A stretch of 64,000 nucleotides of DNA from Phycisphaerales bacterium. Lineage in GTDB: Bacteria; Planctomycetota; Phycisphaerae; Phycisphaerales; UBA1924. A program made the position numbers and the translations under genes. The notes under the pieces were generated by a model. That model saw only the letters and a list, made by a program, of their open reading frames with translations, had not been told where the DNA came from and ran no database searches. Below are positions 2,855-64,000 of the stretch, piece after piece (position 1 is the stretch's first letter; every line of letters begins with the position of its first letter). The DNA lies in NCBI GenBank assembly GCA_020849615.1, contig JADLFW010000018.1:55722-119721 (forward strand). The letters are read 5' to 3'.

Positions 2855-2868
2855 GGAGATGAGCGCGG

Positions 2869-27628: not shown

Positions 27629-27720
27629 GATGGTCTCCTCGGGGCCCGGTCCTTCGCGCGGCCGCCCGCCGGGCCCGTTCCGGGCGGTCGGCATTGTCGG
27701 GGTTGGGCGCGGTCGTGTGT

Positions 27721-28896: not shown

Positions 28897-29063
28897 GTCG
28901 CTCCTCCTTTCGCGATGGTGCGGAGAACGGCGTGCCGGCCATCGCGGGGAACTCACCGGTCCGGGCCCGGCCCGCCCCGATGCCCCCGGGGAGCAATGGC
29001 CCGCCCACGCCGCTGAGCGGGGGCGCGCCGCTGCTTGTCATCGCGCGATGCAGGTCTGCACAC

Positions 29064-30659: not shown

Positions 30660-30748
30660 GGTCGTTCTCCCGTTGTGACCATTCGAGCGGCAAAGCGCCG
30701 CCCGCGCGGTCGGGCGGGGGCGGCGCGAACACACGTCGTACCGCGGAC

Positions 30749-31918: not shown

Positions 31919-32123
31919 GATCAACCTCCTTGCACGGCGCCACGACGCGGTCGCGCCGATGTGCGTTCCGCTCCGCCGATCCACAACCCGATTTCAAAGC
32001 CCCCGGCCCGGACAGGCGGGCCCCCTTGCGAGGTGATCAGAGGTTGACAGCCGGCATCATCCCGAGCCCGGGCCCGGCGATCCACAGGCAATCCGACCTG
32101 TTCAACGCCCCGCTCTGCGGCGG

Positions 32124-50258: not shown

Positions 50259-50416
50259 GCGGCACCTCCCCAAACAGGCGCTATCGGAGTTGTCACCCGC
50301 CCAGTCTACGCGTCCGGGCCGGGCCGTAAGCGGCGGGTGCGGCAGGCCCGGGCCGGCAGATCCGGTCACCCCGCGGCCCCGGCGCGCCGATAATCACCGC
50401 TCCGGATTGAACCCTC

Positions 50417-51622
<1,206 letters not shown>

Positions 51623-51904
51623 CCGGGGCGGCCCGGCATCCCCGGCCCGGCGATGGTGGGGGAGTGGAGGGCCTGTCGGTTGCGTACCTCGGCCGCGCCG
51701 CTCCGGAAGGGCCGGGGAAACCGCCCGATGTGGCGGTCCCGCCGGGAGTTGTGATGACAACTTGGGTGCGAAGGCCCCGTGCTGCAACTTTGGCAGGCGC
51801 CACGACGTAACGCAACGGTTGGCCGGGCGGGCGGTGCGGGGCGGTCCCCGATCGTGCCCGTCACCCCGGCCCGCGCCCGCGGGAGTCTCGGCGGGCCCGG
51901 AGCC

Positions 51905-51959
51905 GGGGGGTTTTCCGGGGTGCATCCGGGGGTGTGGCTGGGGGTGTATCCGGGGGTGT
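51905..51959 (+). repeat. G-run tandem repeat (12-nt period), a G-quadruplex-type motif on the coding strand
   Basis: G-runs of at least four at 51905-10, 51917-20, 51928-32, 51940-44 and 51952-56, with 6-7-nt loops. atccgggggtgt occurs twice exactly, with ggctgggggtgt between the two copies. Confidence 0.6.
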
Positions 51960-51988
51960 GCTCGGCGGTATGGCGGGGAGGCCGCGAG

Positions 51989-52017
51989 TTGAGGAAGTGC
52001 CGATGTTCAGATAGGTT
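51989..52017 (+). promoter_or_regulatory. Candidate promoter in the only AT-richer patch upstream of the giant gene
   Basis: TTGAGG (51989-94), a 17-nt spacer, then TAGGTT (52012-17). The match is weak. Confidence 0.25.
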
Positions 52018-52025
52018 AGAGCGAC

Positions 52026-52065
52026 GTTGACGCAGCCCCCGCCGGTGGGCGGGGGTGAGGTCAAC
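52026..52065 (+). other. Extended hairpin in the putative 5-prime UTR of the giant gene
   Basis: gttgac-gcag-cccccgcc-ggtg-ggcggggg-tgag-gtcaac. Stems of 8 bp and 6 bp are separated by a symmetric internal loop. Confidence 0.5.
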
Positions 52066-52120
52066 CCGGGCGAGCCCAACCGGCGCTGCGTGCAAGGATG
52101 CGGCGGCGCCAATGCCGAAG

Positions 52121-52140
52121 CCGCGATCGCGCGATCGCGG
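52121..52140. promoter_or_regulatory. Perfect 20-nt palindrome, candidate operator
   Basis: ccgcgatcgcgcgatcgcgg equals its own reverse complement. It lies 86 nt upstream of ATG 52226. Confidence 0.45.
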
Positions 52141-52225
52141 CCGGGCCGGATGAACCGTCGACGCGGCGTGCCGCGGCGGCGGGGCCGCCTCCAATCCACG
52201 ACTTGGCAGTGCGCTGGAGTCCTTC

Positions 52226-55200
52226 ATGAGCAGGTCGCGTGACGTGAATCGTTCTTCCGAGAATCCCCGCACTTCGGCGCTGGCCCGCTGGTTCGGCAGG
52301 GCCCGCGACCGCTTCACAGGGACGGGCCGGCTGGCCCGGGAGGCGGGCCGCGCGGGCGGCTTCGTCGAGCCGCTCGAGAAGCGCGAGCTGCTGTTCTCGA
52401 TGACGATCACCCCCAGCGATGTGGATGGCACGGGCATCGGCACGGTCGAGGCGACGTTCGCCTACGCGGTGCCCTACCTGGCGCCGACCGTCGATGTGGG
52501 CACGGCCGACCCCACCAGCCAGCAGGAGGACTTCCAGGACGAGAACGCCGGCAACGTGGTCAACGGCCGCCTCTTCGGCGGTTCCTTCTTCCGCGTCTTC
52601 CACAACATCACACCCGCCGGCGATGTGCAGATCATCGAAAACGTCCCCCCGGGCGACGGCGACAAGTACATGCAGGTCCGGCAGGACACGGGCGGGGAGT
52701 TCTGGAACCTGCGCTTCGCGGTCAGCGATCAGGCGCCCAACACGTTCCTCGCGGCCCGGTCGGTCAGCTTCAACATCGAGCCGCGACTGGTGGGCGGCAC
52801 GGGGCTGGTGCCCGACAACTTCCTGGTCGAGCTGGTCTTCCAGGACCAGGTCATCCGCACGTTCACGGGGGACACCCTGCGCGCGGTGAACCCCAGCCCG
52901 CGCGGCATCGGCAACTACACGTTCACCGGCACGACGGCCAACCCGGCCTTCGACTCCGTGCGCATCACGGCGCTGGTGGGCGGCAACGATGCCTACAAGG
53001 TGGACGACATCACCGCGGTCTACCCGCCCGGCAACTTCGCGGGCATCGTGGGCAGCCGAATCTTCGCCGCCACGGTGGTCTTCTCCGGGCCCGTGGGCGC
53101 CTCGGCCCAGATCCTCGACCTGTACGGCAACGAGATGGTGCAGACGATCGCGGCCGGCACGCCGCCCAGCGGCGCCCAGGTCACGCTGATCGACCCCGAC
53201 GATGACGGCCGCCCGAACTTCAACGACGGCATCGGCCGCATCGTCCTGCGCGGCACCGACTCGCGCTCGGCCATCACGGTCTGGGGCGGCACCATCTCCC
53301 CGACGACCACCCCGCCCCCCGAAGACACCGCCCCCGGCATCCGCTTCGACGGCCGCCTGTGGGATGGCGCCTTCCTGGCGACCATGAGCCAGAACCTCCA
53401 GGGCCAGTACGACGCCTTCGAATCTTCCGGCTTCGGCTACGTCTTCGACGGCATCCAGCGCCGCGCGCTGGGCCTGCCGCCGGGCCCGGGCTCGCTCGTC
53501 CTGGGCAGCCCCTTCGTCCGCAGCGCCGCCACCCCCGGCGAGTACAACCCCGGCGGCCTGCCCGTCACCCGCGATGAGTTCGGCCGGCTGATCCCGGTCA
53601 GCAACATCGTCACCGACGGCTTCACCCGGGCCGACCAGGGCGTCTTCGTCCTCGACGGCGCCTCCATGGGCTCGGTGTACATCAACGGCATCGTGCACGG
53701 CTCCTCGAACTTCAGCGGCGCCCTCGACCGCTTCGTCGCCGGCTACCTGGTCGGCTCGATCGGTGTCGCCGGCGACCTGGGCGCCCTGGTCGTCGGCTCG
53801 GATGCGGGCCAGTGGGTCATCGACCCCGGCAGCACCATCGCCGTCCCCGACGCCATCAAGACCAAGGGCCAGCTCGTCGTCGGCCGCGCCGTGGGCCAGA
53901 TCGAGATCGCGGGCCGCTCGCTGCTGGATGTCACGGTCCAGGGCGACCTCTCCACCCCGCAGACCCGCCCGCCGCGCAACGTCTTCAACTACTTCGAGCA
54001 GGAGTTCGCCTACGGCCTGCTGGTCGAGGCCGGCATCCCCGCCACGGTCCTGCAGACCCTCATCAACAACGACTTCGGCGCCAGCCTGAACAACCGCGGC
54101 TTCCGCGCCTCCGACCAGGCCCTGGCCTTCGGCGACGGCTTCCTCCGCAACGACACCATCATGTCGGCCGAGTGGGTCGGCACCACCGCCTCGGGCGTGC
54201 AGATCTCCGGCGATGTGGGCTACGGCGACCCCATCAACACCGGCGAGGACGGCGCCGATGTCTACGGCTTCGCCACCGACGGCACACAGCCCATCGTCGT
54301 GCAGTTCGACGCCGGCCAGACGGGCAACCTGCTCGTCCGCGTCATGGATGTCAACGGCCGCACCGTGATGGCCAACCAGTTCGGCCGACTGCTGCAGAAC
54401 TCGCAGTTCATCACCTTCAACCCCGATGCCCCTGGCATCTATTACCTCGTCCTCTCGATCCCGGGCGGGACCGACGGCGATCTCCGCACGGGCTTTGCCT
54501 ATTCGATGACCCTCACCGGGCTCGCGCCCGTCACCCTGGGCAGCTACCGCACCGGCGCCGCCAACGCGCGCTCCGATGTCTCCGCCGACTTCACCAACAC
54601 CATCAGCGTGCTGGCCGGCAACGTCGGCACGATCCGCGTGGGCACCGCCTACGTCAACGGCGCGGGCGCCGAGACCGACCCGTCGGTCGCTGTCAATCTC
54701 GCCGCCTCCGACACCGATGTGGACGATGTGCTGGCCTTCCGCGGCGGCACCTTCAGCATCCCCGGCAACCTGTACAACATCACCACCGGCTCGGACATCC
54801 AGGCCGGGCTGGGCCGGCCCGTCAACATCTTCGTCGGCGGCAGCCTCGGCAGCCTGATCACGGGCCAGTCGCCGGTCGTGGGCATCGGCGCCAACGAGGG
54901 CGACATCCGCTTCTTCAACCTGACGGTCGGCGGGAGCGTCGCGCTGCTGGATGTCAAGGGCGGCCTGAGCATCGAGCAGGACGGCACGGCGATCAACTGG
55001 AACCCCGCGCCCCCGGACAACATCAACATCGTCACCGGCGCCTCGGGCGGGCGCGGCGACATCGGCATGTTCCGCGTCGGCTTCCACGTCATGGGCGACG
55101 CCATGAACGTGACGACCTCGCCCGGCTCGGTGATCGGCGGCTTCCTCATCAGCCAGGATGTGGTCTCCGACCCCGGCGACTTCTTCACCGGCGTCTACGG

Positions 55201-58200
55201 CGGCTTCGACGGCGTGACCTTCAACACCGGCGCCGGCTCCGACATCCGCTTCATCTCGTTCCCCAAGCTCGACCTCCGCACCGGCGTCCGCGAGGAGTAC
55301 CCGCTCATCGGCGGCCAGACCCTCGAGCTCATCGACGACGGCGGCGGCACCGTCCGCATCCGGCCCATCAACGTCCCCGCGGGCGGCTTCCTGGGCACCG
55401 TGCGGGCGTTCCCGATCGACGGCTCCGAGGGCGTGGCGATCGGCGACATCACGGTCGATCTCTCCAACGGCGCGGGCGGCATCGGCGCCTCGCTGGAGAT
55501 CGAGACCATCGGGCCCGCCGGCAGCTCCGACATCGTCACCATCGGCCGCATCGTCATCACCGGCTCGGGGACCAACTCGGGCGTCACCGTCCGCGGCAAC
55601 GTGCAGACCGATGTCTACAGCATCCTGCAGACGGGCGGCGGCGCCCTGTCGTTCATCCGCAACCAGACGCCCCTGGGCGACATCGTCGCCATCGACGTCG
55701 CGGGCCTCACCACGCTGGACATCACGACCGGCGACCTGGGCCGCACGCAGGTCCCCGCCTGGGGCCCGCGCCGCATCGGCCCGTTCCTGGGCATCCAGCA
55801 GGGCCCCAACGGCACCGCCGGCGGCGCCCTGGGCATCCCCACCGATGTCATCGACGCCGACTGGGGCGGCGGCCTCTACCGCCGCACCAACGAGCTGACC
55901 ACCGCGGCGGGCCAGGGCTTCCTGGAGGACATGGGCTCGCCCTTCGACCCCTACCTCAACGGCCTGGTCGTCCGCGCCGGCAACATCGATGATGTCAACG
56001 TCGGCGGCGCCATCGGCGATGTCATCCTCCAGAACGGCGACATCGTCCGCCTCACCGCCAACTTCGACCGCGCCACGCCGTCGGGCCGCTTCGACGGCAT
56101 CGTCGGCTCGATCTACGCCAACAACCTCTTCCGCATCGCCATCGGCGACGGCCTCCTCCAGCGCGACACCTCCCCCTTCGCCTCCACCGGCCTCTTCGCC
56201 GTCAACGACATCGTCCAGGTGCTGGGCCAGGACATCCCGGGCCAGTACATCTCCAGCGTCATCACCGCCGGCAACAACGTCATCGACATCGGCACGGGCC
56301 AGTTCAACGGCGTCGACACCATCGACCTCCAGGGCGGCGGCGACTACATCGACGCCTACATCTCCTGCGAGAACCTCGACGGCTTCTGGGTCGGCATCCC
56401 CTACGGCGACGACGGCGCCATCGCCGGCGACATCAACCGCATCACCGGCGAGGACGCGGACATGTTCCGCACCCAGGTCGCCGCCAACAACATCGACACC
56501 ATCCTCCTCACCGACGGGTTCTTCGACGCCAGCTCCGTCCGCGCCGTCGGCGGCACCGTGAACCGCATCGAGGCCGCCGGCTTCCGCAACTCCACCCTCG
56601 CCGGCACCGAGCTGGAGTTCCGCACCAGCGAGCTCCTCGTCGGCCGCGACCTGGGCATCCTCACCACCACCGGCAAGACCGGCGACATCGCCGACCTCGT
56701 CATCGACGTCGTCGGCTCCGTCACCGGCGAGATCTCGGCCCGCACCATCGTCCGGGCCAAGATCGACGTTGATATCAACCTCACGCTCCTCAGCGTGACC
56801 GACAGCGTCCGGGCCAGCGCGGTCACCGCCGGCCAGCTCACCAAGTTCACCGCCGGCCGCAACGTGCAGTCCTCATCCTTCCGCGTCTCCGGCGCCCTCC
56901 CCGACTTCTCGGCCGGCAACGCCATCGTCAACACCAGCATCAACGTCACCGGGCCCTTCGGCCGCATCATCAAGATCTCCGCGCCCAACCAGATCTCCGG
57001 CTCCATCTCCTCCAGCGGCCCGATCGACAGCATCACCTCCACCGCCGGCGACATCGTCGCGACCATCACGACCACCGGGCCCAGCGGCAACGTCAAGCTC
57101 CTCTCCGCGGGCCGCGACCTCGACATCGAGACCGACATCTCCGGCTCGCTCGACACGCTCACCGCGGGCCGCCACATCGGCAACCGCGCCGATCCCTCCG
57201 TCATCCTCGTCCGCGGCAACCTCCTCTCGGCCACCATGGGCGGGCAGCTCTACTCCGACCTCCGCGTCGGCCAGGCCATCACCGGCACCGTCACCATCGG
57301 GCCCGTCAGCCGCCTCCCCGGCGCCGACCTCGGCGGCTCGGGCTCCATCGTCGCCTTCGGCGCCATCAACGCCGTCGCCGTCACCGGCGATTTCGGCGGC
57401 GACATCATCAGCTATTCCGGCGGCATCAAGGGCATCACCATCACCGGCGGCTCCTTCCTGCCGGGCCGGACCATCGCCGCCTACGACGGCTCCATCGACG
57501 GCATCGTCATCTCCGGCGGCAACCTCTACGGCAACATCCACGCCGACTACGTCCTGCTCTCCGTGCAGGTCGTCGCCAGCGCCGACGGCGTCTTCGGCGA
57601 CATCGGCATCAACCCCTTCCTCACCGGCTCCACCCCCTACGACGCGTTCCGCAACCAGCTCCCCATCGGCGTCGTCGCCGCCGCCCCGATCCAGGGCCCG
57701 CGCATCTCCGCCGGCCAGAACATCGGCACCATCGCGACCACCAACGGCTCCATGTTCGAGGCCACCATCCTCGCGGGCCGGGCCATCGGCGTCATCGAGA
57801 TCCGCGGCGATGTCCGCAACGACACCCAGACGCCGGGCCGCGGCACCCTCATCGCCGCGGGCGACTCCATCGCCGGCATCGGCGTCTACGGCGACTTCTT
57901 CAACGCCCACATCCTCTCGGGCGTCGTCTCGCTGGGCGCCGACGGCCGCGCGGGCGGCGTCGGGGCGAACGCCGACACCATCAAGTCCGCCACCATCGGC
58001 GGAGTCGGCGTCGTCGGCAACGCCGCCGACCTCGTCATCGAGGCCGGCATGCTCGCCGGCGTCGACGGCCTCTACGCCACCGCCGACGACGTCACCGCGA
58101 TGGGCCTCTCCTCGATCACCAGCATCTCGCTGGGCGCCTCGGTCGTCCTCGTCAGCGCCTTCTCCGACGCCCTCGATCCCTCCATCATCGCCGACGCCCG

Positions 58201-61200
58201 CATCACCAAGGGCGGGCTCACCGCCGCCAACGAGGACCCGCAGGTCATCGGCGGCGGCGGCCCCTTCGGCACGCCCATCCCCGGCTCGCTGGCCTTCGAT
58301 GTCGGCGGCGACAAGGGCACGATCTTCTTCTCCGGGCCCGGCGAGGCCTTCTTCGACGCCGCCAACAAGCGCGTCGTCCTGCTCAACACGACCCTGGCCT
58401 CGGCCCTCACCGTCACCTCCGACCTCTTCACGCTCACCGACTTCGACATCGCCACCAACGACGACGCGTCCATCGGCACGCTCTACATCGGCGCCAGCCT
58501 CCTGGGCGACTCCGATGTCACGGTCGACGGCTCGGTCGGCTCGTTCACCGTCGGCAACGTCTCGGGCACCGGTTCCTTCCGCCTGGGCGGCGACCTGGGC
58601 TCGTTCATGTCGGGCGGCTTCAGCGGCGGCCTGCTCTCGGCCAAGATCGCCGGCGGCGTGGTCGTCTCCGGCGACTTCGGCGCCGCCAGCCCCGCCACCC
58701 GCGGCGAGGCCCGGTTCAGCTTCCTCACCGCCTCGGGCATCACCATCACCGGCGTGAACCGCGGCGCCGTGAACGTCGACCGCGACCTCTCCGGCTTCGC
58801 CTCCGGCACGATGGACAACGCGACCCTCCGCTCCGGCGGCACCATCGCGACCATCACCGCCGGCGCCCTCAACCGCACCTGGATCTCGGCCCGCGACGCC
58901 ATCGGCACCGTCAGCATCGCCGGCGACATGTTCGACTCCTCGATCATGTCGGGCGGCGACCTGGGCGCTGACGGCGAGTTCGGCGGCACCGGCCTCAACG
59001 CCGACCGGGCCACCACCGGCACCATCGGCTCGGTCGCCGTCGGCGGCAACTTCGGCGAGTCCGATGTCGTCGCCGGCCTCCTCCGCGGCGCCGACGGCTT
59101 CTTCGGCTCCAGCGATGACAACGTCGCCGACGGCCGCTCCGCCATCGGCTCGGTCACCATCGGCGGCACCCAGGTCGGCTCCACCCGCCAGTCCGAGTCC
59201 TACCGCATCTCCTCCACCGGCACCATCGACGCCGTCTCCATCGGCGGCGCGCCGGGCCAGGCCTCCGCCAACTTCGCCATCGACCGCCTCAACCTCATGC
59301 CCCTGGCCGTCCAGGTCAAGGACATCCAGGTCACCGAGGACAGCCGCATCTACACCGCCCGCATCTTCTTCAACCAACCCGTCGACGCCAGCACCCTGGC
59401 CCGCGCCATCAGCGTCGCCGAGGTCCGCGGCCGGTCCGACGTCAGCATCCGCCTCATCAACGGCATCGACTACACCCTGACCTACGACGCCGCCAACAAC
59501 GCGGCCGTCCTGGTCTTCTCCCGCACCATCACGGGCCGCGACCTGCCCCAGATCGCCAGCCGCCCCGGCCCGGGCGTCTACCGCTTCCAGATCCTCCAGG
59601 ATGTCCTCCGCGGCCAGCTCGTCAATCAGCGCCTCGACGGCGATGGCGACGGCATCGCCGAGACCGGCGACAACTTCTCCAAGGACGACATCGTCGGCGA
59701 CCCCGGCGACAAGCTCTTCACCGAACGCGACACCGTCACCCGCGTCGGCGCCGCCCCCGCCACCATCGACATGTACGGGCCCTTCAGCCTCGACTTCGTC
59801 CTCGACAACAACCAGCAGGCCGACGGCCTCGCCGAGCCCAACCAGACCTTCACCATCCGCGGCAGCATCGGCGACCACCCCGACAACGACATCAACAACT
59901 TCCGCTTCGCCGGCGACCTCGACCTCTACACCATCACCCTCCAGGCGGGCCAGATCTTCCGCGTCGGCGCCAACACCGGCCCGGCCCTCCGGGCCGAGGT
60001 CCGCCTCATCGCCCCCGACGGCACCATCCTCCCCGATGTCGCCGCCAGCAACGACACCCTCCCGCTGCCGGTGCAGCGCCCCGCCGACACCGCCCAGACC
60101 GTCGGCCACACCTACCTCGTCAAGACCACCGGCACCTACACCCTCCTGGTCGGCAACGCCTACACCCCCGTCCAGCTCTTCGACGAGCTCGGCGCGGGCC
60201 GCCTCACCGACGCCCAGTTCAACCAGCTCCTCAACGATGAGGGCTTCGCCTACCGCGCCTCGGGCTTCGTCCCCAACCTCGACCCCGTCCCGGGCGGGCT
60301 GGGCGACTACGCCTTCACCGTCAACATCTTCGACGACGGCGACACCGGCTTCTCGGCCACCACCGACGCCGGCGACGGCTCGGCCGTCGTCAACGCCCCG
60401 GCCTCATCCTCCTTCTCCGGCGGCGACCAGGTCCTGGGCACGGCCGATGACCTCAAGCAGATCAGCATCGGCGCCTTCACCTTCACCTACAACCCCGGCG
60501 CCGACGGCCTCGTCGGCACCGTTGACGACTTCGTCACCGGCTCCACGCCGCAGATCACCTCGTTCCACAACGGCGATGGCCGCCTGATCTCGATCATCAA
60601 CGGCTCGATCGGCCCGGCCAACGCCTCGGGTGTCCCCACCACCGTCTTCCCCGACGCCGATGTCTACCACCTCAACAACCGCACCAGCATCGCCCCCGGC
60701 ACCCGCATGCGGATCACCGTCCGCCTGACCGAGTTCGGCACCGACCTGGGCTCACGCAACCAGCTCGTCTTCGGCTCCGACCAGTTCAACCTCGACAACT
60801 TCCGCGGCGCTGTGCAGTTCGGCCTCTTCGACACATCGGCCAGCACCCGCATCGACGACGGCTCGCTGGTCTTCAGCCCCACCAACTTCTCCCCCAACGG
60901 CGGCACCCCCAACACCACCATCGCCACCGACGGCACCACCACCTACGGGTACGACGGCAACGGCGATTTCTTCATCGACTTCGTCACGCCGGGCCGCCCC
61001 GGCCCCGACGGCAAGACCGGCACCGCCGACGACCAGGCCTCCAAGTACGCCATCTACCTCCAGGGCGTCTACAGCGGCGACTACCAGATCCAGGTCGACA
61101 CCACCGCCCCCACGACCACCCGCATCACCCCCCGCCGCCAGAACATCCTGCTCGAGACCCGCGGCGGCACCATCGACTGGCTCGAGAAGGGCGGTCTGAC

Positions 61201-61912
61201 CACCCGGCTCTCCGCCTTCTCCACCAGCCCCATCGGCTTCAGCGGCAGCGTCGCGTCGGGCCAGACCGTCGACCAGTACGTGCTCACCTCCGTCCGCAAC
61301 GCCCTCCAGAGCATCTTCAACGCGGCGGGCCTCGATGTCCGCTTCTCCACCGACCCCCGCGACTTCGAGTTCCAGGACTTCTCGACCGTCTACCTCTCCA
61401 GCACCGTCGACCCCGTCAGCCTCCTCTTCAACGCCTACGCCGACCCCCGCGTCGCCCTCACCAGCACCGTCACCCTGGGCGCCTACCAGTTCGCCACGCT
61501 CGGCGATGGCTTCAGCCGCCTCCAGCCCTTCGGCTTCGCCGAGCACTCCGACGCCCTCAACGCCGATGTCAGGGATGAGGCCGTCGTCTTCATCCCCTCC
61601 ATGGCGCTGCTGGGCTACACCCCCGCCCAGTCCGACATCGACCTCCTGGCCTCTTCCACCACCGCGGCCATCGCCCGCCGCGTCGGCGAGCTCATGGGCG
61701 CCCGCATCACCTCCAACAACTCGCCCACCTCCTCCATCCGCGACCCGCTCGCCGCCGACAGCGTCACCGGGCCGACCGTCGTCGGCAGCTCCTTCACCCT
61801 CCCGGCCATCAACCGCCTCCTCTCCGACCCCTTCGACTCCATCGACTCCAGCGACTTCTTCCTCGGGGCCCAGAGCACCCGCACCGTCCTCTCGCGCGTC
61901 GCGGGCAAGTAA
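52226..61912 (+). CDS. Giant (3228 aa) secreted repeat protein, probable beta-helical surface or adhesin protein, with two PPC-like domains and an Ig-like domain
   Basis: One uninterrupted ORF. GGAG lies 8 nt before the ATG. Basic N-terminus followed by FVEPLEKRELLFS. PPC-like segments lie at about 54194-54520 (GEDGADVYGFATDG...GIYYLVLS) and 59843-60165 (FAGDLDLYTITLQAG...GTYTLLVGNA). An Ig-like segment lies at about 59300-59545. More than 1500 aa consist of short G/I/V-periodic coils. A strong terminator follows. Confidence 0.9.
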   Translation: MSRSRDVNRSSENPRTSALARWFGRARDRFTGTGRLAREAGRAGGFVEPLEKRELLFSMTITPSDVDGTGIGTVEATFAYAVPYLAPTVDVGTADPTSQQEDFQDENAGNVVNGRLFGGSFFRVFHNITPAGDVQIIENVPPGDGDKYMQVRQDTGGEFWNLRFAVSDQAPNTFLAARSVSFNIEPRLVGGTGLVPDNFLVELVFQDQVIRTFTGDTLRAVNPSPRGIGNYTFTGTTANPAFDSVRITALVGGNDAYKVDDITAVYPPGNFAGIVGSRIFAATVVFSGPVGASAQILDLYGNEMVQTIAAGTPPSGAQVTLIDPDDDGRPNFNDGIGRIVLRGTDSRSAITVWGGTISPTTTPPPEDTAPGIRFDGRLWDGAFLATMSQNLQGQYDAFESSGFGYVFDGIQRRALGLPPGPGSLVLGSPFVRSAATPGEYNPGGLPVTRDEFGRLIPVSNIVTDGFTRADQGVFVLDGASMGSVYINGIVHGSSNFSGALDRFVAGYLVGSIGVAGDLGALVVGSDAGQWVIDPGSTIAVPDAIKTKGQLVVGRAVGQIEIAGRSLLDVTVQGDLSTPQTRPPRNVFNYFEQEFAYGLLVEAGIPATVLQTLINNDFGASLNNRGFRASDQALAFGDGFLRNDTIMSAEWVGTTASGVQISGDVGYGDPINTGEDGADVYGFATDGTQPIVVQFDAGQTGNLLVRVMDVNGRTVMANQFGRLLQNSQFITFNPDAPGIYYLVLSIPGGTDGDLRTGFAYSMTLTGLAPVTLGSYRTGAANARSDVSADFTNTISVLAGNVGTIRVGTAYVNGAGAETDPSVAVNLAASDTDVDDVLAFRGGTFSIPGNLYNITTGSDIQAGLGRPVNIFVGGSLGSLITGQSPVVGIGANEGDIRFFNLTVGGSVALLDVKGGLSIEQDGTAINWNPAPPDNINIVTGASGGRGDIGMFRVGFHVMGDAMNVTTSPGSVIGGFLISQDVVSDPGDFFTGVYGGFDGVTFNTGAGSDIRFISFPKLDLRTGVREEYPLIGGQTLELIDDGGGTVRIRPINVPAGGFLGTVRAFPIDGSEGVAIGDITVDLSNGAGGIGASLEIETIGPAGSSDIVTIGRIVITGSGTNSGVTVRGNVQTDVYSILQTGGGALSFIRNQTPLGDIVAIDVAGLTTLDITTGDLGRTQVPAWGPRRIGPFLGIQQGPNGTAGGALGIPTDVIDADWGGGLYRRTNELTTAAGQGFLEDMGSPFDPYLNGLVVRAGNIDDVNVGGAIGDVILQNGDIVRLTANFDRATPSGRFDGIVGSIYANNLFRIAIGDGLLQRDTSPFASTGLFAVNDIVQVLGQDIPGQYISSVITAGNNVIDIGTGQFNGVDTIDLQGGGDYIDAYISCENLDGFWVGIPYGDDGAIAGDINRITGEDADMFRTQVAANNIDTILLTDGFFDASSVRAVGGTVNRIEAAGFRNSTLAGTELEFRTSELLVGRDLGILTTTGKTGDIADLVIDVVGSVTGEISARTIVRAKIDVDINLTLLSVTDSVRASAVTAGQLTKFTAGRNVQSSSFRVSGALPDFSAGNAIVNTSINVTGPFGRIIKISAPNQISGSISSSGPIDSITSTAGDIVATITTTGPSGNVKLLSAGRDLDIETDISGSLDTLTAGRHIGNRADPSVILVRGNLLSATMGGQLYSDLRVGQAITGTVTIGPVSRLPGADLGGSGSIVAFGAINAVAVTGDFGGDIISYSGGIKGITITGGSFLPGRTIAAYDGSIDGIVISGGNLYGNIHADYVLLSVQVVASADGVFGDIGINPFLTGSTPYDAFRNQLPIGVVAAAPIQGPRISAGQNIGTIATTNGSMFEATILAGRAIGVIEIRGDVRNDTQTPGRGTLIAAGDSIAGIGVYGDFFNAHILSGVVSLGADGRAGGVGANADTIKSATIGGVGVVGNAADLVIEAGMLAGVDGLYATADDVTAMGLSSITSISLGASVVLVSAFSDALDPSIIADARITKGGLTAANEDPQVIGGGGPFGTPIPGSLAFDVGGDKGTIFFSGPGEAFFDAANKRVVLLNTTLASALTVTSDLFTLTDFDIATNDDASIGTLYIGASLLGDSDVTVDGSVGSFTVGNVSGTGSFRLGGDLGSFMSGGFSGGLLSAKIAGGVVVSGDFGAASPATRGEARFSFLTASGITITGVNRGAVNVDRDLSGFASGTMDNATLRSGGTIATITAGALNRTWISARDAIGTVSIAGDMFDSSIMSGGDLGADGEFGGTGLNADRATTGTIGSVAVGGNFGESDVVAGLLRGADGFFGSSDDNVADGRSAIGSVTIGGTQVGSTRQSESYRISSTGTIDAVSIGGAPGQASANFAIDRLNLMPLAVQVKDIQVTEDSRIYTARIFFNQPVDASTLARAISVAEVRGRSDVSIRLINGIDYTLTYDAANNAAVLVFSRTITGRDLPQIASRPGPGVYRFQILQDVLRGQLVNQRLDGDGDGIAETGDNFSKDDIVGDPGDKLFTERDTVTRVGAAPATIDMYGPFSLDFVLDNNQQADGLAEPNQTFTIRGSIGDHPDNDINNFRFAGDLDLYTITLQAGQIFRVGANTGPALRAEVRLIAPDGTILPDVAASNDTLPLPVQRPADTAQTVGHTYLVKTTGTYTLLVGNAYTPVQLFDELGAGRLTDAQFNQLLNDEGFAYRASGFVPNLDPVPGGLGDYAFTVNIFDDGDTGFSATTDAGDGSAVVNAPASSSFSGGDQVLGTADDLKQISIGAFTFTYNPGADGLVGTVDDFVTGSTPQITSFHNGDGRLISIINGSIGPANASGVPTTVFPDADVYHLNNRTSIAPGTRMRITVRLTEFGTDLGSRNQLVFGSDQFNLDNFRGAVQFGLFDTSASTRIDDGSLVFSPTNFSPNGGTPNTTIATDGTTTYGYDGNGDFFIDFVTPGRPGPDGKTGTADDQASKYAIYLQGVYSGDYQIQVDTTAPTTTRITPRRQNILLETRGGTIDWLEKGGLTTRLSAFSTSPIGFSGSVASGQTVDQYVLTSVRNALQSIFNAAGLDVRFSTDPRDFEFQDFSTVYLSSTVDPVSLLFNAYADPRVALTSTVTLGAYQFATLGDGFSRLQPFGFAEHSDALNADVRDEAVVFIPSMALLGYTPAQSDIDLLASSTTAAIARRVGELMGARITSNNSPTSSIRDPLAADSVTGPTVVGSSFTLPAINRLLSDPFDSIDSSDFFLGAQSTRTVLSRVAGK

Positions 61913-61938: not shown

Positions 61939-61970
61939 ACCCACGGGCCCGCGCCCGTGGGTTTTTTCTT
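61939..61970 (+). terminator. Rho-independent terminator of the giant gene
   Basis: acccacgggc-ccgc-gcccgtgggt, a 10-bp stem with a 4-nt loop, followed by tttttctt. Confidence 0.85.
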
Positions 61971-62144
61971 GAACGAGTGAGGGTGACGGAGTGACGATGT
62001 GACGAGGCGCGTCTGCAAACCCGGGGCGGCGGGCATCCCGCCCGCCCCGGAGTTCATGATCCCGCCACGCCGGCGATAAGCGAGTCCGCGAGCGCAACCG
62101 CCCCCATCCGTGCTTGCGGCGGCCGGGGGGATGCTCTCTCTCCG

Positions 62145-64000
62145 CTACTTCGTCACGCCGCCGCTCTCCTTCACGATCGCCTCCCGCCGCTCCTCCATCG
62201 CATCAATCCACCCCGCCGCCGCCATGATCCCATCGCTCAGCATCGCCCGGGCCTGCTCGGCCTGCGTCTTCATCGCCTCAAACTGCCGGGCCGCGAGATC
62301 CGCGCCCCTCGATGCCTCGTCGGCCCGCGCCACCAGCGCCGCCATCCGCTCGAAGTTCCCGCTCTCCAGCCGCGCCACCTGGGCGCCGATCGCCTGCAGC
62401 CGCCCGTCAAGCTCGTTGAGCACCGCCTGGCCGCGGCCGATCAGCGGGCCCAGCGTCCGCTCCGCCTGGTTCAGCACTTCCTCGATCTGCACCTTCTGCT
62501 CGACGATGTAACCGCGCTGCCCATCCAGCGCTGCCGTCGCCTCTCCCCGCTGCCGCTCCACCGTCGCCGCCGCCTCGATCGCCGCCGCGCCGATCTGCTC
62601 CATCGTCCGCTTCCCCGCCGCCGTAATCTGCACCTGCTGCACCGCGATCGTGTGCGTCTCGCCCCGGATCCCCGACAGCAGCTCCCCGGCCCGGGCCGTC
62701 AGCTCCTCGCCCGCGCGGGCCGCCGACATCTCCACGCGGTCCACCCCCTGCACCGCCGCGGCCTCGATCTGCCGCACGCGCTCCTCCACCTCACGGGCCA
62801 GGTCGCTCACCGCCGCGGTCTGCGCCTCCAGCGACTCCACGACACCTCGGGTATGGCGGTCGATCGCGGCCCGGCCGCGGTCGATCTCGCCGCCCAGCCG
62901 GTTCAGCCCGTCATCCAGCAGCGTCTGCCCGCGGGCCACCCGCTGTTCGATCTCCCGCTCCAGGTCCGCCATCGTCGTCCGCTGCGCCTCGAGCTGCCGG
63001 GCCAGGCCATCCGCGGCCCGCTCGCCCAGCGCATCCAGCGACTCCCGGATCGTCGCGCCGTGCGCTTCCAGCTCCTCCGCCTTCCGCGCCGCCGCGGCAT
63101 CCAGGTCCCGGTGCCGGGCCCCGATCGTCTCGCCCGCGGTCCCCAGCGAGGCCAGCAGCGCCGCTGTCCGGTGCTCGAGGTCGGCCCGCGCCTTGCCGGC
63201 ATCCGCCTCGACCTGCTTGGCCTGCTCGCGCAGCGAATCCAGGATCCCCATCGCGTGATGATCCAGGATCGACCGCGTCTCCTGCGCATGCCCGGCGGTC
63301 TGGGTGATCTGGGTCTCCACCTCGCCGATGCGGGAGGTCACCGCCGACAGTTCGCCTTGCAGCACCGCGCGCAGCTCTTGGGTCCGGGCCTCCAGATTCG
63401 CCGCCTGCCGTTCCGACTGCGCCGCCAGGTCCTCGACGGCCCGGGCCGTGCTGAGCGCGAACTCCTGGGCCCGCGCTTCAACCTCCCGGGCCCGCGATTC
63501 GACCGCATCCTGCTCGGCGCGGAACCGGCCCGTGAGCTGCTCGACCGCCCTGGCCAGCCGCTGCTCGAACTCTGAGGCCCGGGCCGCCATGCGCTCGGCG
63601 ATCAGCTTCTCGACCGTCTCGGCGTGCTTGGCGGGATCAACCGCCAGCTCCAGCAGTTTCTCGGCCCGGGCCACCCGCTGCTCGAGCGCGGGCAGCAGCT
63701 TGGCGGCCCTCTCCAGCCGCGATTGCAGCTCCTTTGTCGTGTCGCGGAGGTGCCCCTCCATCGTGCCGGCATCGGCCTTGGTCGACTGCAGCAGCCGCGA
63801 GTGGTTCGCCGCCTGCCGGATCAGCTCCTGCAGCGTCAGCGAGAACTCCTCGAACGAGCGGCGGTCCACAACGCGCGGCGTCAGGAAGATCTGTTCGACG
63901 GCCTGCTCGGGCGTCGGGATGTGCGCGGCCGTCGCGACTCTGTGTGCGGCCCCGTTCCGTGCCGCGGCAGCAGTCTCGGCGTTGCCCGGGATTCCGGGGA
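62145..64000 (-). CDS. Long alpha-helical coiled-coil protein of unknown function (the 5-prime end may lie beyond the window)
   Basis: ORF 62145..63869 starts at a GTG. The same frame stays open to position 64000, reading ...AAHIPTPEQAVEQIFLTPRVVDRRSFEEF. The sequence is E/A/R/L/Q-rich with heptad-like periodicity throughout and has no TM segment. Confidence 0.65.
   Translation of the reverse strand, partial: PGIPGNAETAAAARNGAAHRVATAAHIPTPEQAVEQIFLTPRVVDRRSFEEFSLTLQELIRQAANHSRLLQSTKADAGTMEGHLRDTTKELQSRLERAAKLLPALEQRVARAEKLLELAVDPAKHAETVEKLIAERMAARASEFEQRLARAVEQLTGRFRAEQDAVESRAREVEARAQEFALSTARAVEDLAAQSERQAANLEARTQELRAVLQGELSAVTSRIGEVETQITQTAGHAQETRSILDHHAMGILDSLREQAKQVEADAGKARADLEHRTAALLASLGTAGETIGARHRDLDAAAARKAEELEAHGATIRESLDALGERAADGLARQLEAQRTTMADLEREIEQRVARGQTLLDDGLNRLGGEIDRGRAAIDRHTRGVVESLEAQTAAVSDLAREVEERVRQIEAAAVQGVDRVEMSAARAGEELTARAGELLSGIRGETHTIAVQQVQITAAGKRTMEQIGAAAIEAAATVERQRGEATAALDGQRGYIVEQKVQIEEVLNQAERTLGPLIGRGQAVLNELDGRLQAIGAQVARLESGNFERMAALVARADEASRGADLAARQFEAMKTQAEQARAMLSDGIMAAAGWIDAMEERREAIVKESGGVTK

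What the first reader, a model, noticed from the sequence alone, without database searches (positions are those of the whole stretch)
52226..61912. 3228-aa secreted giant with an N-terminal EPLEKRELLF motif, a beta-helix-like core and a C-terminal domain lacking recognisable catalytic motifs
This is a single ORF of 9.7 kb with its own long upstream region and a textbook terminator. Four features stand out.

1. It has a basic N-terminus followed by FVEPLEKRELLFS. I recognise this as the LExLExRxLL-type motif common at the start of very large planctomycetal surface proteins. Its sorting role is, to my knowledge, not established.
2. It has two PPC-like beta-sandwich domains and one Ig-like domain.
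3. It has more than 1500 aa of about 20-residue G/I/V/T-periodic coils with few charged runs, consistent with a parallel beta-helix fibre.
4. The last roughly 230 aa are laid out loosely like a metzincin catalytic domain: ...FGFAEHSD...AVVFIP...AAIARRVGELMGARITSNNS. There is no HExxH anywhere I can see, so a degenerate protease fold is possible. This last point is weak.

The protein is a candidate fibre, adhesin or scaffold, and is possibly relevant to the dockerin-tailed proteins.
Basis: partly seen in the sequence, partly recalled or inferred. Interest (0 to 1): 0.65.

Follow-up and report, generated by a model that had tools for sequence, protein, structure and literature searches.

The report
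Conserved giant protein ending in dead protease
This 3,228-residue gene encodes a giant, almost all-beta, probably exported protein kept at nearly the same length across the planctomycete order Phycisphaerales; its last domain is a zinc protease fold whose metal-binding residues have all been replaced, so it most likely binds rather than cuts.

Summary
The ORF (52226-61912, +; 3,228 aa, 333 kDa, pI 4.3), its 603-nt upstream gap and its terminator are real. Pfam, NCBIfam and PDB sequence searches find nothing in it. It is nevertheless one of more than 110 full-length, collinear orthologs (3,113-3,344 aa, 35-88% identity), all from Phycisphaerales MAGs and all unnamed.

- **N-terminal motif:** conserved in 210 of 214 related giants. 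It is the published planctomycete "RRLxxExLExRxLLA" putative export signal. There is no Sec-type hydrophobic core.
- **C-terminal domain:** This domain is homologous to metzincin proteases. HExxHxxGxxH has become RRxGExxGxRx, and the new residues are themselves nearly invariant. A sister clade of collinear giants still has intact or partly decayed HExxHxxGxxH.
- **Models:** they confirm one PPC (collagen-binding-type) domain and reveal an unnoticed N-terminal CBM-like jelly roll.
- **Not confirmed:** the 20-residue periodicity, a single parallel beta-helix, the Ig-like domain, and any link to the dockerin-tailed genes.

Best reading: a non-catalytic envelope or surface fibre/scaffold with binding modules at both ends. 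This is a new variant of a known kind, of moderate interest.

The parts
51623..52225 (+). 603-nt upstream intergenic region between pheA and the giant gene; holds the presumed promoter/5' leader, with GGAG 8 nt before the ATG
   Evidence: pheA was identified by tblastn and synteny. No Rfam family is found and no sigma-70-like promoter. A long gap is typical of orthologs: the median pheA-to-giant distance is 464 nt in 44 loci.
52226..61912 (+). Giant ORF: 3,228 aa, 333 kDa, pI 4.33, net charge about -141, one Cys, no TM-like segment
   Evidence: There are 119 homologs, about 110 of them full-length and collinear.
52226..52366 (+). Basic, non-hydrophobic leader (residues 1-47); net charge of residues 1-57 is +6
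   Evidence: Modelled as disordered, pLDDT < 50. Across the family the median net charge is +7 and the median maximum 12-aa Kyte-Doolittle mean is 0.81, so there is no Sec-type h-region.
52367..52396 (+). EPLEKRELLF (residues 48-57): the planctomycete-specific ExLExRxLL N-terminal motif, a putative export/sorting signal
   Evidence: L50, E51 and R53 are invariant and L56/F57 nearly so. The motif is present in 210 of 214 related giants. It is the only such motif in the window. Literature: PMC8567305.
52397..53119 (+). N-terminal beta-jelly-roll, CBM/lectin-like domain (about residues 58-298)
   Evidence: AF2 model with pLDDT 86-95. Foldseek matches CBM4/8/27/29/32/51/86 and the gingipain K1/K2 adhesin domains (TM 0.4-0.55, probability 1.0). 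Assignment of these hits to residues 58-298 is inferred, because Foldseek did not report query ranges. No sequence-level family is found.
53183..53245 (+). Highly conserved acidic loop LIDPDDDGRPNFNDGIGRIVL (residues 320-340), a candidate Ca2+-binding site
   Evidence: D323, G328, P330, N333, G335 and G337 are invariant or nearly invariant. The region has high pLDDT without regular secondary structure. Ca2+ binding is inferred.
53363..54025 (+). Short-strand beta-solenoid-like segment (about residues 380-600)
   Evidence: DSSP shows strands spaced about 18-20 residues apart between residues 481 and 571. There is weak profile similarity to core segments (380-window vs 1980-window, hhalign 94%, E 1.3e-7).
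54188..54553 (+). PPC / collagen-binding-domain-type beta-sandwich no. 1 (about residues 655-776)
   Evidence: Foldseek matches ColG/ColH CBD (TM 0.64-0.74). Pfam PF04151 hits orthologs (27.1 and 25.9 bits vs cut-off 25.9; 5 of 15 members). There is also a sub-threshold Por_Secre_tail hit at 692-749.
54563..59290 (+). Gly/Asp-rich all-beta core (about residues 780-2355); residues 1100-2600 are almost free of indels across orthologs
   Evidence: Conservation and gap profiles. DSSP of residues 780-1186 is all-beta with mixed strand lengths. There is no regular period and no PDB or Pfam relative. Residues 1200-2355 were not modelled.
57701..58093 (+). Internal repeat, copy A (residues 1826-1956)
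   Evidence: hhalign against residues 2181-2299: 99.6% probability, E 4.6e-24, 119 columns.
58766..59122 (+). Internal repeat, copy B (residues 2181-2299), containing a GxDGxxG(S/T)xDD acidic motif
59303..59635 (+).
   Evidence: Only 1 of 61 orthologs gives a marginal ChiW_Ig_like hit (E 0.005). There is no PDB relative. The region was not modelled.
59828..60175 (+). PPC-like domain no. 2 (about residues 2535-2650); moderate support
   Evidence: hhalign PPC1 vs PPC2: 67% probability, E 5e-5, 88 columns. Pfam PPC hits 2 of 61 orthologs.
60293..61090 (+). Pre-terminal region (residues 2690-2955) with two GxDGxxGTxDD motifs and a possible third PPC-like sandwich (2795-2955)
   Evidence: hhalign PPC2 vs residues 2795-2960: E 1.5e-3, probability 17%. 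Motifs at 2758 and 2926. Support is weak.
61133..61909 (+). C-terminal pseudo-metzincin domain (residues 2970-3228)
   Evidence: AF2 model: pLDDT 83.4, pTM 0.84. 38 of the top 40 PDB matches are metzincins, best E 0.083. The family profile hits HExxH-bearing metzincins at E 7e-9 to 4e-7 and sister giants at E 1e-14 to 1e-23. hhalign against P0248: 96.7% probability, E 3.7e-10.
61661..61711 (+). Former active-site helix TAAIARRVGELMGARIT (residues 3146-3162), aligned with xxxxxHExxHxxGxxHx of active relatives: H->R3151, E->R3152, H->E3155, G3158 kept, H->I3161
   Evidence: Alignments. R3151, G3154, E3155, G3158 and R3160 are invariant or nearly invariant. 'RRxGE' occurs in 154 of the 172 related giants in which the helix pattern was found.
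61939..61972 (+). Intrinsic terminator: 10-bp G+C-rich stem, 4-nt loop, T-run

Best explanation
The gene encodes a vertically inherited, order-wide conserved giant protein of Phycisphaerales. I think it is an exported, non-catalytic envelope or surface fibre/scaffold.

Proposed steps:
1. INFERRED. The basic leader plus the LExLExRxLLF motif directs export by the still-unidentified planctomycete-specific route. There is no Sec-type signal peptide.
2. SHOWN for residues 58-1186, INFERRED for the rest. The mature protein is an acidic, probably Ca2+-stabilised, almost all-beta elongated body. Its length is held nearly constant by selection.
3. FOLD SHOWN, LIGAND UNKNOWN. The N-terminal end carries a CBM-like jelly roll and a PPC (collagen-binding-type) sandwich, which are typical ligand- or glycan-binding modules.
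4. SHOWN. The C-terminal end is a metzincin protease domain in which all three zinc-binding histidines and the catalytic glutamate are replaced (HExxHxxGxxH -> RRxGExxGxRx). It therefore cannot be a zinc protease.
5. INFERRED. The replacement residues are themselves nearly invariant, so the former substrate cleft has probably been kept as a binding or anchoring site, not left to decay.

The ancestral state was probably a giant stalk tipped with an active protease. Some sister-clade members still look like that.
For: ORTHOLOGY AND SELECTION
- 119 homologs were found. About 110 are full-length and collinear, 3,113-3,344 aa long, at 35-88% identity.
- Conservation is even along the whole length, and residues 1100-2600 have almost no indels.
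- 173 GTDB species genomes hold a relative, and all of the best 80 are Phycisphaerales/Phycisphaerae.

CORE-GENOME CONTEXT
- pheA lies upstream in 44 loci, including the window. NADH-dehydrogenase subunit genes, rnc and rpmH lie nearby in ortholog loci. No partner gene recurs.
- G+C content matches the rest of the window.

EXPORT
- The motif is conserved in 210 of 214 giants, after a leader with median charge +7 and no hydrophobic core.
- In 1.64 Mb of six-frame sequence the motif occurs 59 times, 55 of them in giants.
- The motif is published as a putative export signal of planctomycete surface proteins. 8 of the 10 longest T. immobilis proteins carry it, and 8 of 20 detected carriers were exclusively in the SDS fraction (PMC8567305).
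- The protein has an extracellular-type composition: 1 Cys, pI 4.33, D-rich loops.

ARCHITECTURE
- The model of residues 1-1200 has pLDDT 84.9 and pTM 0.81 and is all-beta.
- It matches PPC/ColG-CBD and CBM-like folds.

PSEUDO-METZINCIN
-.
- Sister-clade C-terminal domains with SHEVGHTLGLRH-type sites pass the Pfam metzincin cut-offs (DUF4953 24.3-26.5 vs 24.2; Peptidase_M10 28.0 vs 24; Reprolysin_3/4 23.4/22.8 vs 22.4/22).
- The window's C-terminal domain has a single His.
Against: - No experimental data exist for any family member. All are from uncultured MAGs and are annotated as hypothetical.
- Export is inferred only from the motif and the types of domain present. The sorting role of the motif has never been demonstrated.
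- No anchor (TM segment, lipobox or known sorting tail) was found, so it is unknown which end is attached to what.
- Residues 1200-2960 were not modelled, and neither a rod shape nor a beta-helix is shown. The Foldseek match of the C-terminal domain to metzincins is individually non-significant (best E 0.083, TM 0.35/0.46), so the homology rests mainly on sequence profiles.
- A binding role for the dead active site is an inference from conservation alone.
Confidence: 0.55

Rival explanations
1. It is a structural element inside the cell envelope (periplasm/paryphoplasm) and not surface-exposed: a fixed-length spacer or ruler, with the pseudo-metzincin cleft gripping a peptide such as a peptidoglycan stem or another envelope protein.
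For: - Length is conserved with unusual strictness, and the core is almost free of indels across more than 100 orthologs. Surface adhesins under host or phage pressure usually vary in length.
- The gene sits among housekeeping genes and looks vertically inherited.
- The replaced active-site residues are nearly invariant.
Against: - CBM-like and PPC modules are typical of extracellular proteins that bind external polymers.
- Nothing tested here links the protein to peptidoglycan or to any envelope partner.
- No partner gene is conserved next to it.
Confidence: 0.2
2. It is a contact-dependent toxin or polymorphic effector of the CdiA/FHA/Rhs kind: a long beta-rich stalk that delivers a C-terminal effector domain.
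For: - The overall layout resembles such systems: a giant beta-rich body with a distinct enzyme-derived C-terminal domain.
- Sister-clade members carry an apparently active metzincin at the tip.
Against: - There is no TPS/haemagglutination-activity domain or any other Pfam match.
- No TpsB-like transporter or small immunity gene is found beside the gene in the window or in the five fully annotated relative loci, and no partner gene recurs across the 83 loci whose flanks were clustered.
- The C-terminal domain is conserved and not polymorphic. The family profile matches more than 120 proteins at E < 1e-30.
- The catalytic residues are absent here.
Confidence: 0.05
3. The C-terminal domain is still an enzyme that uses a non-canonical site (for example Glu/Arg-based, or a different metal), so the protein is a stalk-mounted hydrolase.
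For: - E3155 and several Asp/Glu/Asn residues in the domain are invariant (E2977, D3109, N3112, D3117).
- Strong conservation of the former active-site helix shows it is functional in some sense.
Against: - All four catalytic positions of the metzincin motif are replaced. Only one His remains in the domain.
- To my knowledge no metzincin is known to work without the HExxH zinc site.
- The Met-turn Met is Leu in this protein (L3175; alignment).
Confidence: 0.07
4. The domain calls are over-interpreted: the protein is simply one more large, low-complexity, Gly/Asp-rich 'beta strand repeat-containing' surface protein with no specific architecture.
For: - Pfam, NCBIfam and PDB sequence searches are empty for the window protein.
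- NCBI names one relative 'beta strand repeat-containing protein'.
- Glycine makes up 14% of the residues.
Against: - Both models are confident (pLDDT 83-85, pTM 0.81-0.84).
- 220 positions are at least 97% conserved across 107 orthologs.
- There is no tandem-repeat periodicity.
- The homology chain to metzincins is specific.
Confidence: 0.05

Closest known systems
Planctomycete giant cell-surface proteins carrying the N-terminal RRLxxExLExRxLLA motif (Studholme et al. 2004, as cited in PMC8567305; 52 such proteins in Tuwongella immobilis, including 8 of its 10 longest)
   Same: A basic leader is followed by vExLExRxLLF about 45 residues from the start. The protein is very large, has no classical signal peptide, and carries extracellular-type domains.
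   Different: - This family is a single, length-conserved ortholog group specific to Phycisphaerales.
- Its motif variant ends in LLF(S/A)LT and not LLA.
- It has none of the domains reported for the T. immobilis set (trypsin, integrin-beta/Calx, bacterial Ig).
- It ends in a pseudo-metzincin.
Metzincin zinc metalloproteases (clan MA(M): matrixins M10, adamalysins/reprolysins M12B, fragilysin) and the uncharacterised short 'PPC + metzincin' proteins P0245-P0250
   Same: - Sequence-profile homology is clear: E 7e-9 to 4e-7 in the library search, and hhalign 96.7%.
- The order of conserved blocks is the same: (F/L)L(D/E)xxGG strand, FSTV(F/Y)L strand, DEAVVF strand, a long helix ending in xExxGxxGL, then DxMxxxS.
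- The top fold matches are ADAM8, ADAM33, fragilysin and MMPs.
   Different: - The three His zinc ligands and the catalytic Glu are replaced by R, E, I and R respectively.
- The Met-turn Met is Leu in this protein.
- The domain sits at the end of a 3,000-aa body.
- The fold match is weak (TM 0.35/0.46).
Catalytically inactive ADAM family members (e.g. ADAM11/22/23), which lack HExxH and act as adhesion/receptor modules (own knowledge, not tested here)
   Same: A metzincin fold is retained with the zinc site lost, and the domain is kept under selection in a non-proteolytic, binding role. This is the role proposed here.
   Different: Those proteins are eukaryotic, membrane-anchored and a few hundred residues long. 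The relationship is one of analogy of principle only, with no specific relatedness beyond the clan.
Clostridial collagenase ColG/ColH collagen-binding domain (PPC, PF04151)
   Same: Residues about 655-776 superpose with TM 0.64-0.74 and rmsd 3.5-4.2 A. Orthologs pass the Pfam PPC cut-off.
   Different: The window protein itself does not reach the Pfam threshold. The ligand is unknown, and the context is not a collagenase.
Two-partner-secretion and autotransporter beta-helical adhesins/toxins (FHA, CdiA)
   Same: These are giant, beta-rich, probably elongated exported proteins with a distinct terminal module.
   Different: There is no TPS domain, no TpsB neighbour, no regular beta-helix rung period, and no polymorphic tip or immunity gene.

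Membership tests
Metzincin metalloproteases (clan MA(M)) | Detectable sequence homology of the catalytic domain to known metzincins | tested here: met
   - The C-terminal domain profile hits HExxHxxGxxH proteins P0245 and P0247-P0250 at E 7e-9 to 4e-7 in 1.84e9 proteins.
- hhalign against P0248 gives 96.7% probability, E 3.7e-10.
- Sister giants hit at E 1e-14 to 1e-23 have C-terminal domains that pass the Pfam metzincin cut-offs.
Metzincin metalloproteases (clan MA(M)) | Zinc-binding consensus HExxHxxGxxH (three His ligands plus the catalytic Glu) | tested here: not met
   The aligned segment is R3151-R3152-V-G-E3155-L-M-G3158-A-R3160-I3161. The protein has no HExxH anywhere and only one His in the domain. 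154 of the 172 related giants in which the helix pattern was found have RRxGE.
Metzincin metalloproteases (clan MA(M)) | Met-turn downstream of the third His | tested here: inconclusive
   The family consensus DxMAANSV aligns with ..SLMDITSSMSV of P0248. The window protein has Leu at that position (D3173-P-L3175-A-A-D-S-V). Coordinates of the structural turn could not be inspected.
Metzincin metalloproteases (clan MA(M)) | Metzincin alpha/beta fold with an active-site helix | tested here: inconclusive
   AF2 model: pLDDT 83.4. 38 of the top 40 PDB matches are metzincins, but the best is E 0.083, TM 0.35/0.46. The long helix at residues 3135-3156 ends exactly at the former motif.
Planctomycete N-terminal ExLExRxLL signal proteins | ExLExRxLL-type motif near the N-terminus, preceded by basic residues | tested here: met
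   EPLEKRELLF is at residues 48-57. Leader residues 1-57 have net charge +6. The motif is conserved in 210 of 214 relatives.
Planctomycete N-terminal ExLExRxLL signal proteins | Export to, or association with, the cell surface/envelope | not testable with these tools
   Only literature correlation is available (PMC8567305). There is no proteomic data for this family.
PPC / pre-peptidase C-terminal domain (PF04151) | Match to the Pfam model at the gathering score, or the ColG-CBD fold | tested here: met
   - For domain 1 (655-776): the fold matches at TM up to 0.74, and orthologs score 27.1 and 25.9 bits vs 25.9.
- The window protein itself scores below threshold.
- Domain 2 (2535-2650) is supported only by hhalign at 67%.
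Right-handed parallel beta-helix / beta-solenoid fibre | Regular rung repeat (about 18-25 residues) and structural match to beta-helix proteins | tested here: inconclusive
   - No significant period was found. Lag-20 autocorrelation is patchy.
- Strand spacing of 18-20 residues is seen only in residues 481-571. Strands of 9-12 residues at 1055-1135 look more like a sandwich.
- No beta-helix is in the top 50 PDB matches. BFVD rank 3 is a 'right handed beta helix' protein at E 1e-4 but TM 0.09.
- Residues 1200-2355 were not modelled.
Two-partner secretion exoproteins (FHA/CdiA) | N-terminal TPS (haemagglutination activity) domain and an adjacent TpsB transporter | tested here: not met
   There are no Pfam or NCBIfam hits. 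Neighbours are pheA, a GATase, an FAD-binding oxidase, metK and a hypothetical gene. No transporter appears in five annotated relative loci.
Cohesin-dockerin scaffoldin | Cohesin modules able to bind the dockerin-like tails encoded elsewhere in the window | tested here: not met
   No cohesin match was found in the whole protein, in the nine segments, or in the family scans. The dockerin-like tails are themselves sub-threshold.

The most novel reading that the evidence does not exclude
The protein is a fixed-length structural 'ruler' or tether of the Phycisphaerales cell envelope. It is exported through the uncharacterised ExLExRxLL pathway. Its pseudo-metzincin cleft has been re-purposed, with an Arg/Glu network replacing zinc, to grip a specific peptide such as a peptidoglycan stem or an envelope protein, while the N-terminal CBM-like/PPC end binds glycan. 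Because it is a conserved substrate across a whole order, it could serve as the handle for identifying the long-sought planctomycete-specific sorting machinery by co-evolution or pull-down.
Probability: 0.12. Interest if true: 0.8.

Novelty: new variant of a known kind. Interest (0 to 1): 0.55.

Why it matters
- **A large, conserved, uncharacterised family.** The work defines an order-wide family of more than 110 full-length orthologs in at least 173 species genomes. Current domain libraries see nothing in it, and I found no paper describing it in the held library.
- **A clear case of active-site loss.** Within one collinear giant scaffold, the site runs from intact HExxHxxGxxH, through partly decayed versions, to a fully replaced but re-fixed RRxGExxGLR. 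This allows direct experiments on how a protease tip becomes a binding module.
- **A tractable substrate for an open question.** The N-terminal ExLExRxLL signal of planctomycetes has been an open question since 2004. This family offers a clean, conserved substrate for studying it.
- **An unusual evolutionary pattern.** The near-constant length of a 3.2-kaa non-repetitive beta protein hints at a structural role where length matters.

Tried and rejected
DOMAIN AND SEQUENCE SEARCHES THAT FOUND NOTHING
- Pfam and NCBIfam on the whole protein and on nine overlapping segments gave nothing significant.
- PDB sequence searches with the single protein and with four family profiles (full length, C-terminal domain, core, C-terminal middle region) gave zero hits; a fifth, the N-terminal region, gave only one non-significant match, E 0.67.
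- Rfam on the whole window gave nothing, so no riboswitch or leader RNA is recognised in the long upstream region.
- The sigma-70 promoter scan found none.

SYNTENY
- I looked for an operon partner and found only housekeeping neighbours. Several 'conserved' flanking ORFs are antisense artefacts of this 69% G+C DNA. For example, the 519-aa ORF at 50366-51925 (-) lies opposite pheA.

REPEATS
- Tests for regular repeats by autocorrelation and by spectral analysis of family-averaged hydrophobicity found no convincing period.

TECHNICAL REFUSALS
- I worked around this with exact sub-sequences and a 36-row alignment.

PPC COMPARISONS
- Comparing PPC1/2/3 with the N-terminal domains of the short metzincins gave weak or no signal. 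The best was PPC1 vs P0250 at 34% probability. The idea that the last 420 aa are a captured whole 'PPC + metzincin' protease therefore remains only a suggestion.

FAMILY NAMING
- NCBIfam on the active relatives gave only motif-level hits, so they too belong to no named family.

LITERATURE
- Searches for this family found nothing specific.


Full report
**1. The observation**

It runs from an ATG at 52226 to a stop ending at 61912 on the + strand and encodes 3,228 aa. A GGAG lies 8 nt upstream of the start.

The nearest upstream gene is not the 519-aa minus-strand ORF that a mechanical ORF list suggests. It is pheA (chorismate mutase/prephenate dehydratase) on the + strand, ending at 51622. This was identified by 70-75% identity to the pheA genes next to two distant orthologs. 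That leaves a 603-nt intergenic region.

Downstream there is a textbook intrinsic terminator at 61939-61972, with a 10-bp stem (8 G-C pairs), a 4-nt loop and a T-run. G+C content (0.69-0.70) matches the rest of the window.

The product is 333 kDa with pI 4.33 and a net charge of about -141. It has a single Cys and 11 His, no HExxH, and no transmembrane-like segment.

**2. It is invisible to the curated libraries but belongs to a large, tightly conserved family**

Pfam-A finds nothing in the whole protein or in nine overlapping segments. NCBIfam gives only a sub-threshold Por_Secre_tail hit at 692-749. PDB sequence searches give nothing.

The 5.8-billion-protein search, by contrast, returns 119 homologs. 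About 110 of these align over 98-100% of the query at 35-88% identity, with lengths confined to 3,113-3,344 aa. Every named one is 'hypothetical protein' from Phycisphaerales, Phycisphaeraceae or Phycisphaerae MAGs.

A scan of one genome per GTDB species finds relatives in 173 genomes. All of the best 80 come from the same lineage.

Conservation is even along the whole length, with 220 positions at least 97% conserved in 107 orthologs. Residues 1100-2600 are almost free of indels. This is not how repeat-array adhesins usually evolve. It points to a structure in which length and register matter.

**3. Genomic context**

The neighbours in the window are metK, an AIR-synthase-type gene, a GH15 glycosidase, an FAD-binding oxidase, a class-II glutamine amidotransferase and pheA.

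Across 83 loci, pheA is upstream and co-directional in 44, at a median distance of 464 nt. NADH-dehydrogenase subunit genes lie further upstream in 38 loci. A conserved hypothetical gene lies downstream and convergent in 36 loci, including the window (62145-63998, -).

There is no recurring transporter, immunity gene, chaperone or sorting enzyme. The gene is a standalone transcription unit in the vertically inherited part of the genome.

**4. N-terminus**

All homologs start with a basic leader followed by [VIL]ExLExR[QKE][LM]LF[SA][LM]T. Among 214 related giants, 210 have the motif, at a median position of 44. The leader has a median net charge of +7, and the median of its maximum 12-residue hydropathy is 0.81, so there is no Sec-type hydrophobic core. 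AlphaFold models residues 1-56 as disordered.

The motif occurs once in the 64-kb window. In 1.64 Mb of six-frame translated Phycisphaerales DNA it occurs 59 times, 55 of them at the start of these giants.

The motif is known. PMC8567305 cites Studholme et al. (2004) for 'RRLxxExLExRxLLA' as a putative novel export signal of Rhodopirellula baltica surface proteins. That paper finds 52 carriers in Tuwongella immobilis, including 8 of its 10 longest proteins. Of 20 carriers detected by proteomics, 8 were exclusively in the SDS-soluble fraction.

**5. Residues 58-1200: structure**

A 36-sequence alignment gave a confident model with mean pLDDT 84.9 and pTM 0.81. It is almost entirely beta.

Foldseek against the PDB separates two kinds of domain match:
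- The ColG/ColH collagen-binding domain, which is the structural prototype of Pfam PPC (TM 0.64-0.74, rmsd 3.5-4.2 A). This confirms the first PPC-like domain at about 655-776. Pfam PPC also reaches its gathering score at the same place in orthologs.
- A range of beta-jelly-roll carbohydrate-binding modules and the gingipain adhesin domains (TM 0.4-0.55). This assignment is inferred, because Foldseek did not report query ranges.

Between the two lie:
- an invariant acidic loop (DPDDDGxPNFNDGIGRI, residues 320-340), which is a candidate Ca2+ site;
- a short-strand segment (about 380-600) whose strands recur every 18-20 residues, which is solenoid-like.

**6. The core**

The claim of more than 1,500 aa of about 20-residue periodic coils is not borne out.
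- Lag-20 autocorrelation of hydrophobic residues reaches only 0.15-0.20, in two sub-regions.
- A spectral analysis of hydrophobicity averaged over the family finds no period between 8 and 45 residues above shuffled controls anywhere in the core.
- In the modelled part (780-1186), strand lengths are mixed. There are several strands of 9-12 residues (1055-1135) that look more like a sandwich than a beta-helix.
- No beta-helix protein is among the top 50 PDB matches.
- The viral library gives long, poorly superposing alignments to tail proteins. One of these is a 'right handed beta helix' protein at E 1e-4 but TM 0.09.

Profile-profile comparison of 160-residue windows shows one clear internal duplication: residues 1826-1956 match 2181-2299 (99.6% probability, E 4.6e-24). 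Other window pairs show only weak resemblance.

The high pTM of a 1,200-residue model suggests the domains pack in a fixed arrangement, but that is an inference.

In summary, the core is a non-repetitive, Gly/Asp-rich, all-beta body of conserved length.

**7. Residues 2355-2960**

Family profiles of this region find no PDB relative.
- Pfam PPC is seen in 2 of 61 orthologs, and an Ig-like family in 1 of 61 at E 0.005.
- hhalign relates the putative second PPC (2535-2650) to the first at 67% probability (E 5e-5).
- It relates a possible third sandwich (2795-2960) to the second only weakly, at E 1.5e-3.
- The Ig-like call is therefore unverified.
- A short acidic motif, GxDGxxG(S/T)xDD, recurs at 2288, 2758 and 2926. 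It also appears as an insertion inside the C-terminal domain of some orthologs.

**8. The C-terminal domain is a pseudo-metzincin**

A 58-sequence alignment of residues 2955-3228 gave a confident model (pLDDT 83.4, pTM 0.84).

No single PDB match is significant (best E 0.083, ADAM8, TM 0.35/0.46). However, 38 of the top 40 matches are metzincin catalytic domains: ADAMs, snake-venom adamalysins, fragilysin, MMPs and OgpA-type glycopeptidases.

The decisive evidence is sequence-based. The family profile was searched against 1.84 billion representative proteins and found 201 matches.
- Nearly all are the C-termini of 3,000-5,500-aa giants.
- The tail of the list contains short proteins of 376-686 aa (E 7e-9 to 4e-7). 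These consist of a PPC-like domain plus a metzincin domain with an intact HExGHLLGLxHT, and they score at or near the Pfam Peptidase_M10 threshold.

hhalign of the family against one of these short proteins gives 96.7% probability (E 3.7e-10) over 154 columns. It superposes the giant's AAIARRVGELMGARIT on vvcHEaGHllGLnHT. The substitutions are:

| Metzincin position | Residue in this protein |
|---|---|
| First His ligand | R3151 |
| Catalytic Glu | R3152 |
| Second His ligand | E3155 |
| Conserved Gly | G3158 (kept) |
| Third His ligand | I3161 |
| Met-turn Met | L3175 |

The replacement residues are not drifting. R3151, G3154, E3155, G3158 and R3160 are invariant or nearly invariant, and 'RRxGE' is found in 154 of the 172 related giants in which the helix pattern was found.

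**9. A sister clade preserves the ancestral state**

A group of collinear giants (2,734-3,731 aa) shares about 27% identity with the query over residues about 320-3180 and has the same LEPRKLL N-terminal motif. It shows the whole series of active-site states:
- Complete HExxHxxGxxH: SHEVGHTLGLRHA (P0229), SHELGHTMGLRHN (P0233), AHELGHTLGLRHN (P0234), AHELGHTFGLRHQ (P0237).
- Partly decayed: HELLHTFGLRN (P0238), AREIGHLLGLRN (P0226), SMELGRLMGLRL (P0236), AQELGETFGLRE (P0231).

The intact C-terminal domains pass Pfam metzincin gathering scores: DUF4953 'Met-zincin' 24.3-26.5 vs 24.2, Peptidase_M10 28.0 vs 24, and Reprolysin_3/4 23.4/22.8 vs 22.4/22.

One member of this clade is annotated from a Phycisphaerales MAG. 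The two loci I examined are again standalone genes among housekeeping genes, with no pheA upstream.

The simplest reading is that the ancestor was a giant stalk tipped by an active metzincin. In the lineage of the window protein, the site was lost and then re-fixed in a new form.

**10. Mechanism proposed, and how sure I am**

- **Shown:** conserved orthology and length; the leader and motif; the jelly-roll and PPC folds; the all-beta nature of residues 58-1186; homology of the C-terminal domain to metzincins together with loss of every catalytic residue.
- **Inferred:** export by the ExLExRxLL route; an elongated shape; Ca2+ stabilisation; ligand binding by the N-terminal modules; a binding or anchoring role for the re-fixed pseudo-active site.

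I put 0.55 on 'exported, non-catalytic envelope/surface fibre or scaffold with binding modules at both ends'. The main rival (0.2) differs only in location and purpose: an intra-envelope ruler or tether. Toxin-delivery, cryptic-enzyme and 'just low-complexity' readings are each 0.07 or less, for the reasons given under the rivals.

**11. What is not supported**

The proposed link to the dockerin-tailed proteins is not supported. Those are six paralogous DUF5122/Rax2-type beta-propeller genes at 10860-13406 and 26468-31984 (-), with sub-threshold Dockerin_1 tails. The giant has no cohesin or other recognisable partner module.

**12. Novelty and score**

The class is known: giant planctomycete proteins with this N-terminal motif. 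Pseudo-proteases are also a known phenomenon. This particular family, its order-wide length conservation, and the graded decay of a terminal metzincin within one scaffold are not described in the library I could search.

I rate it a new variant of a known kind, with interest 0.55.

Noticed in passing
window 10860-13406 (-) and 26468-31984 (-): Six paralogous genes of about 390-560 aa share a C-terminal tail of about 55 aa. Three of the six match beta-propeller families (DUF5122/Rax2 at or above cut-off in two, sub-threshold Rax2 in a third), and three have sub-threshold Dockerin_1/EF-hand matches in the tail; two match no Pfam family. The same tail is found on an S8 peptidase and on another protein next to orthologs of the giant (L002, L003).
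   Followed up: partly
window 50366-51925 (-): This 519-aa ORF has no Pfam match and lies antisense to pheA (50411-51622, +). It is an artefact of the 69% G+C DNA. Similar antisense ORFs formed the largest 'conserved' flanking cluster across 52 loci.
   Followed up: yes
window 62145-63998 (-): A conserved hypothetical gene lies convergent with the giant. Homologs sit downstream of the giant in 36 loci. Its L001 counterpart has only a weak Apolipoprotein-family hit. No Pfam family was found for the window copy.
   Followed up: partly
window 60161-60256 and 61442-61516 (residues 2646-2677 and 3073-3097): These are two lineage-specific insertions, absent from about 80% of orthologs. The second lies inside the pseudo-metzincin domain and is the only low-confidence stretch of its model (pLDDT < 50).
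   Followed up: partly
window residues 2288, 2758, 2926; also ortholog C-terminal domains listed: A short acidic motif, GxDGxxG(S/T)xDD, recurs in the giant. It also appears as an extra insertion (e.g. GPDGVVGTSDDV, GSDGLFGTADDE) inside the C-terminal domain of some orthologs, as if it were a small portable Ca2+-loop cassette.
   Followed up: no
L015 (QWIH01000008.1) and L002 (QWIG01000004.1): MAGs deposited as 'Leptolyngbya sp. PLA1/PLA2' (a cyanobacterial name) carry full-length orthologs of this Phycisphaerales-specific giant in the same pheA context. The organism label is probably wrong.
   Followed up: no
L046, minus strand near position 948: This is the only other plausible ExLExRxL-type N-terminal motif (…FETLESRRLMD…) found in 1.64 Mb of flanking sequence. 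It sits on an ORF of about 290 aa or more that is unrelated to the giant.
   Followed up: no
L084 7600-7845 and 5872-7272: Upstream of one HExxH-bearing sister-clade giant lie an 81-aa ORF with no Pfam match and a divergent sigma-54-dependent response regulator. This could hint at regulated expression in that clade.
   Followed up: no
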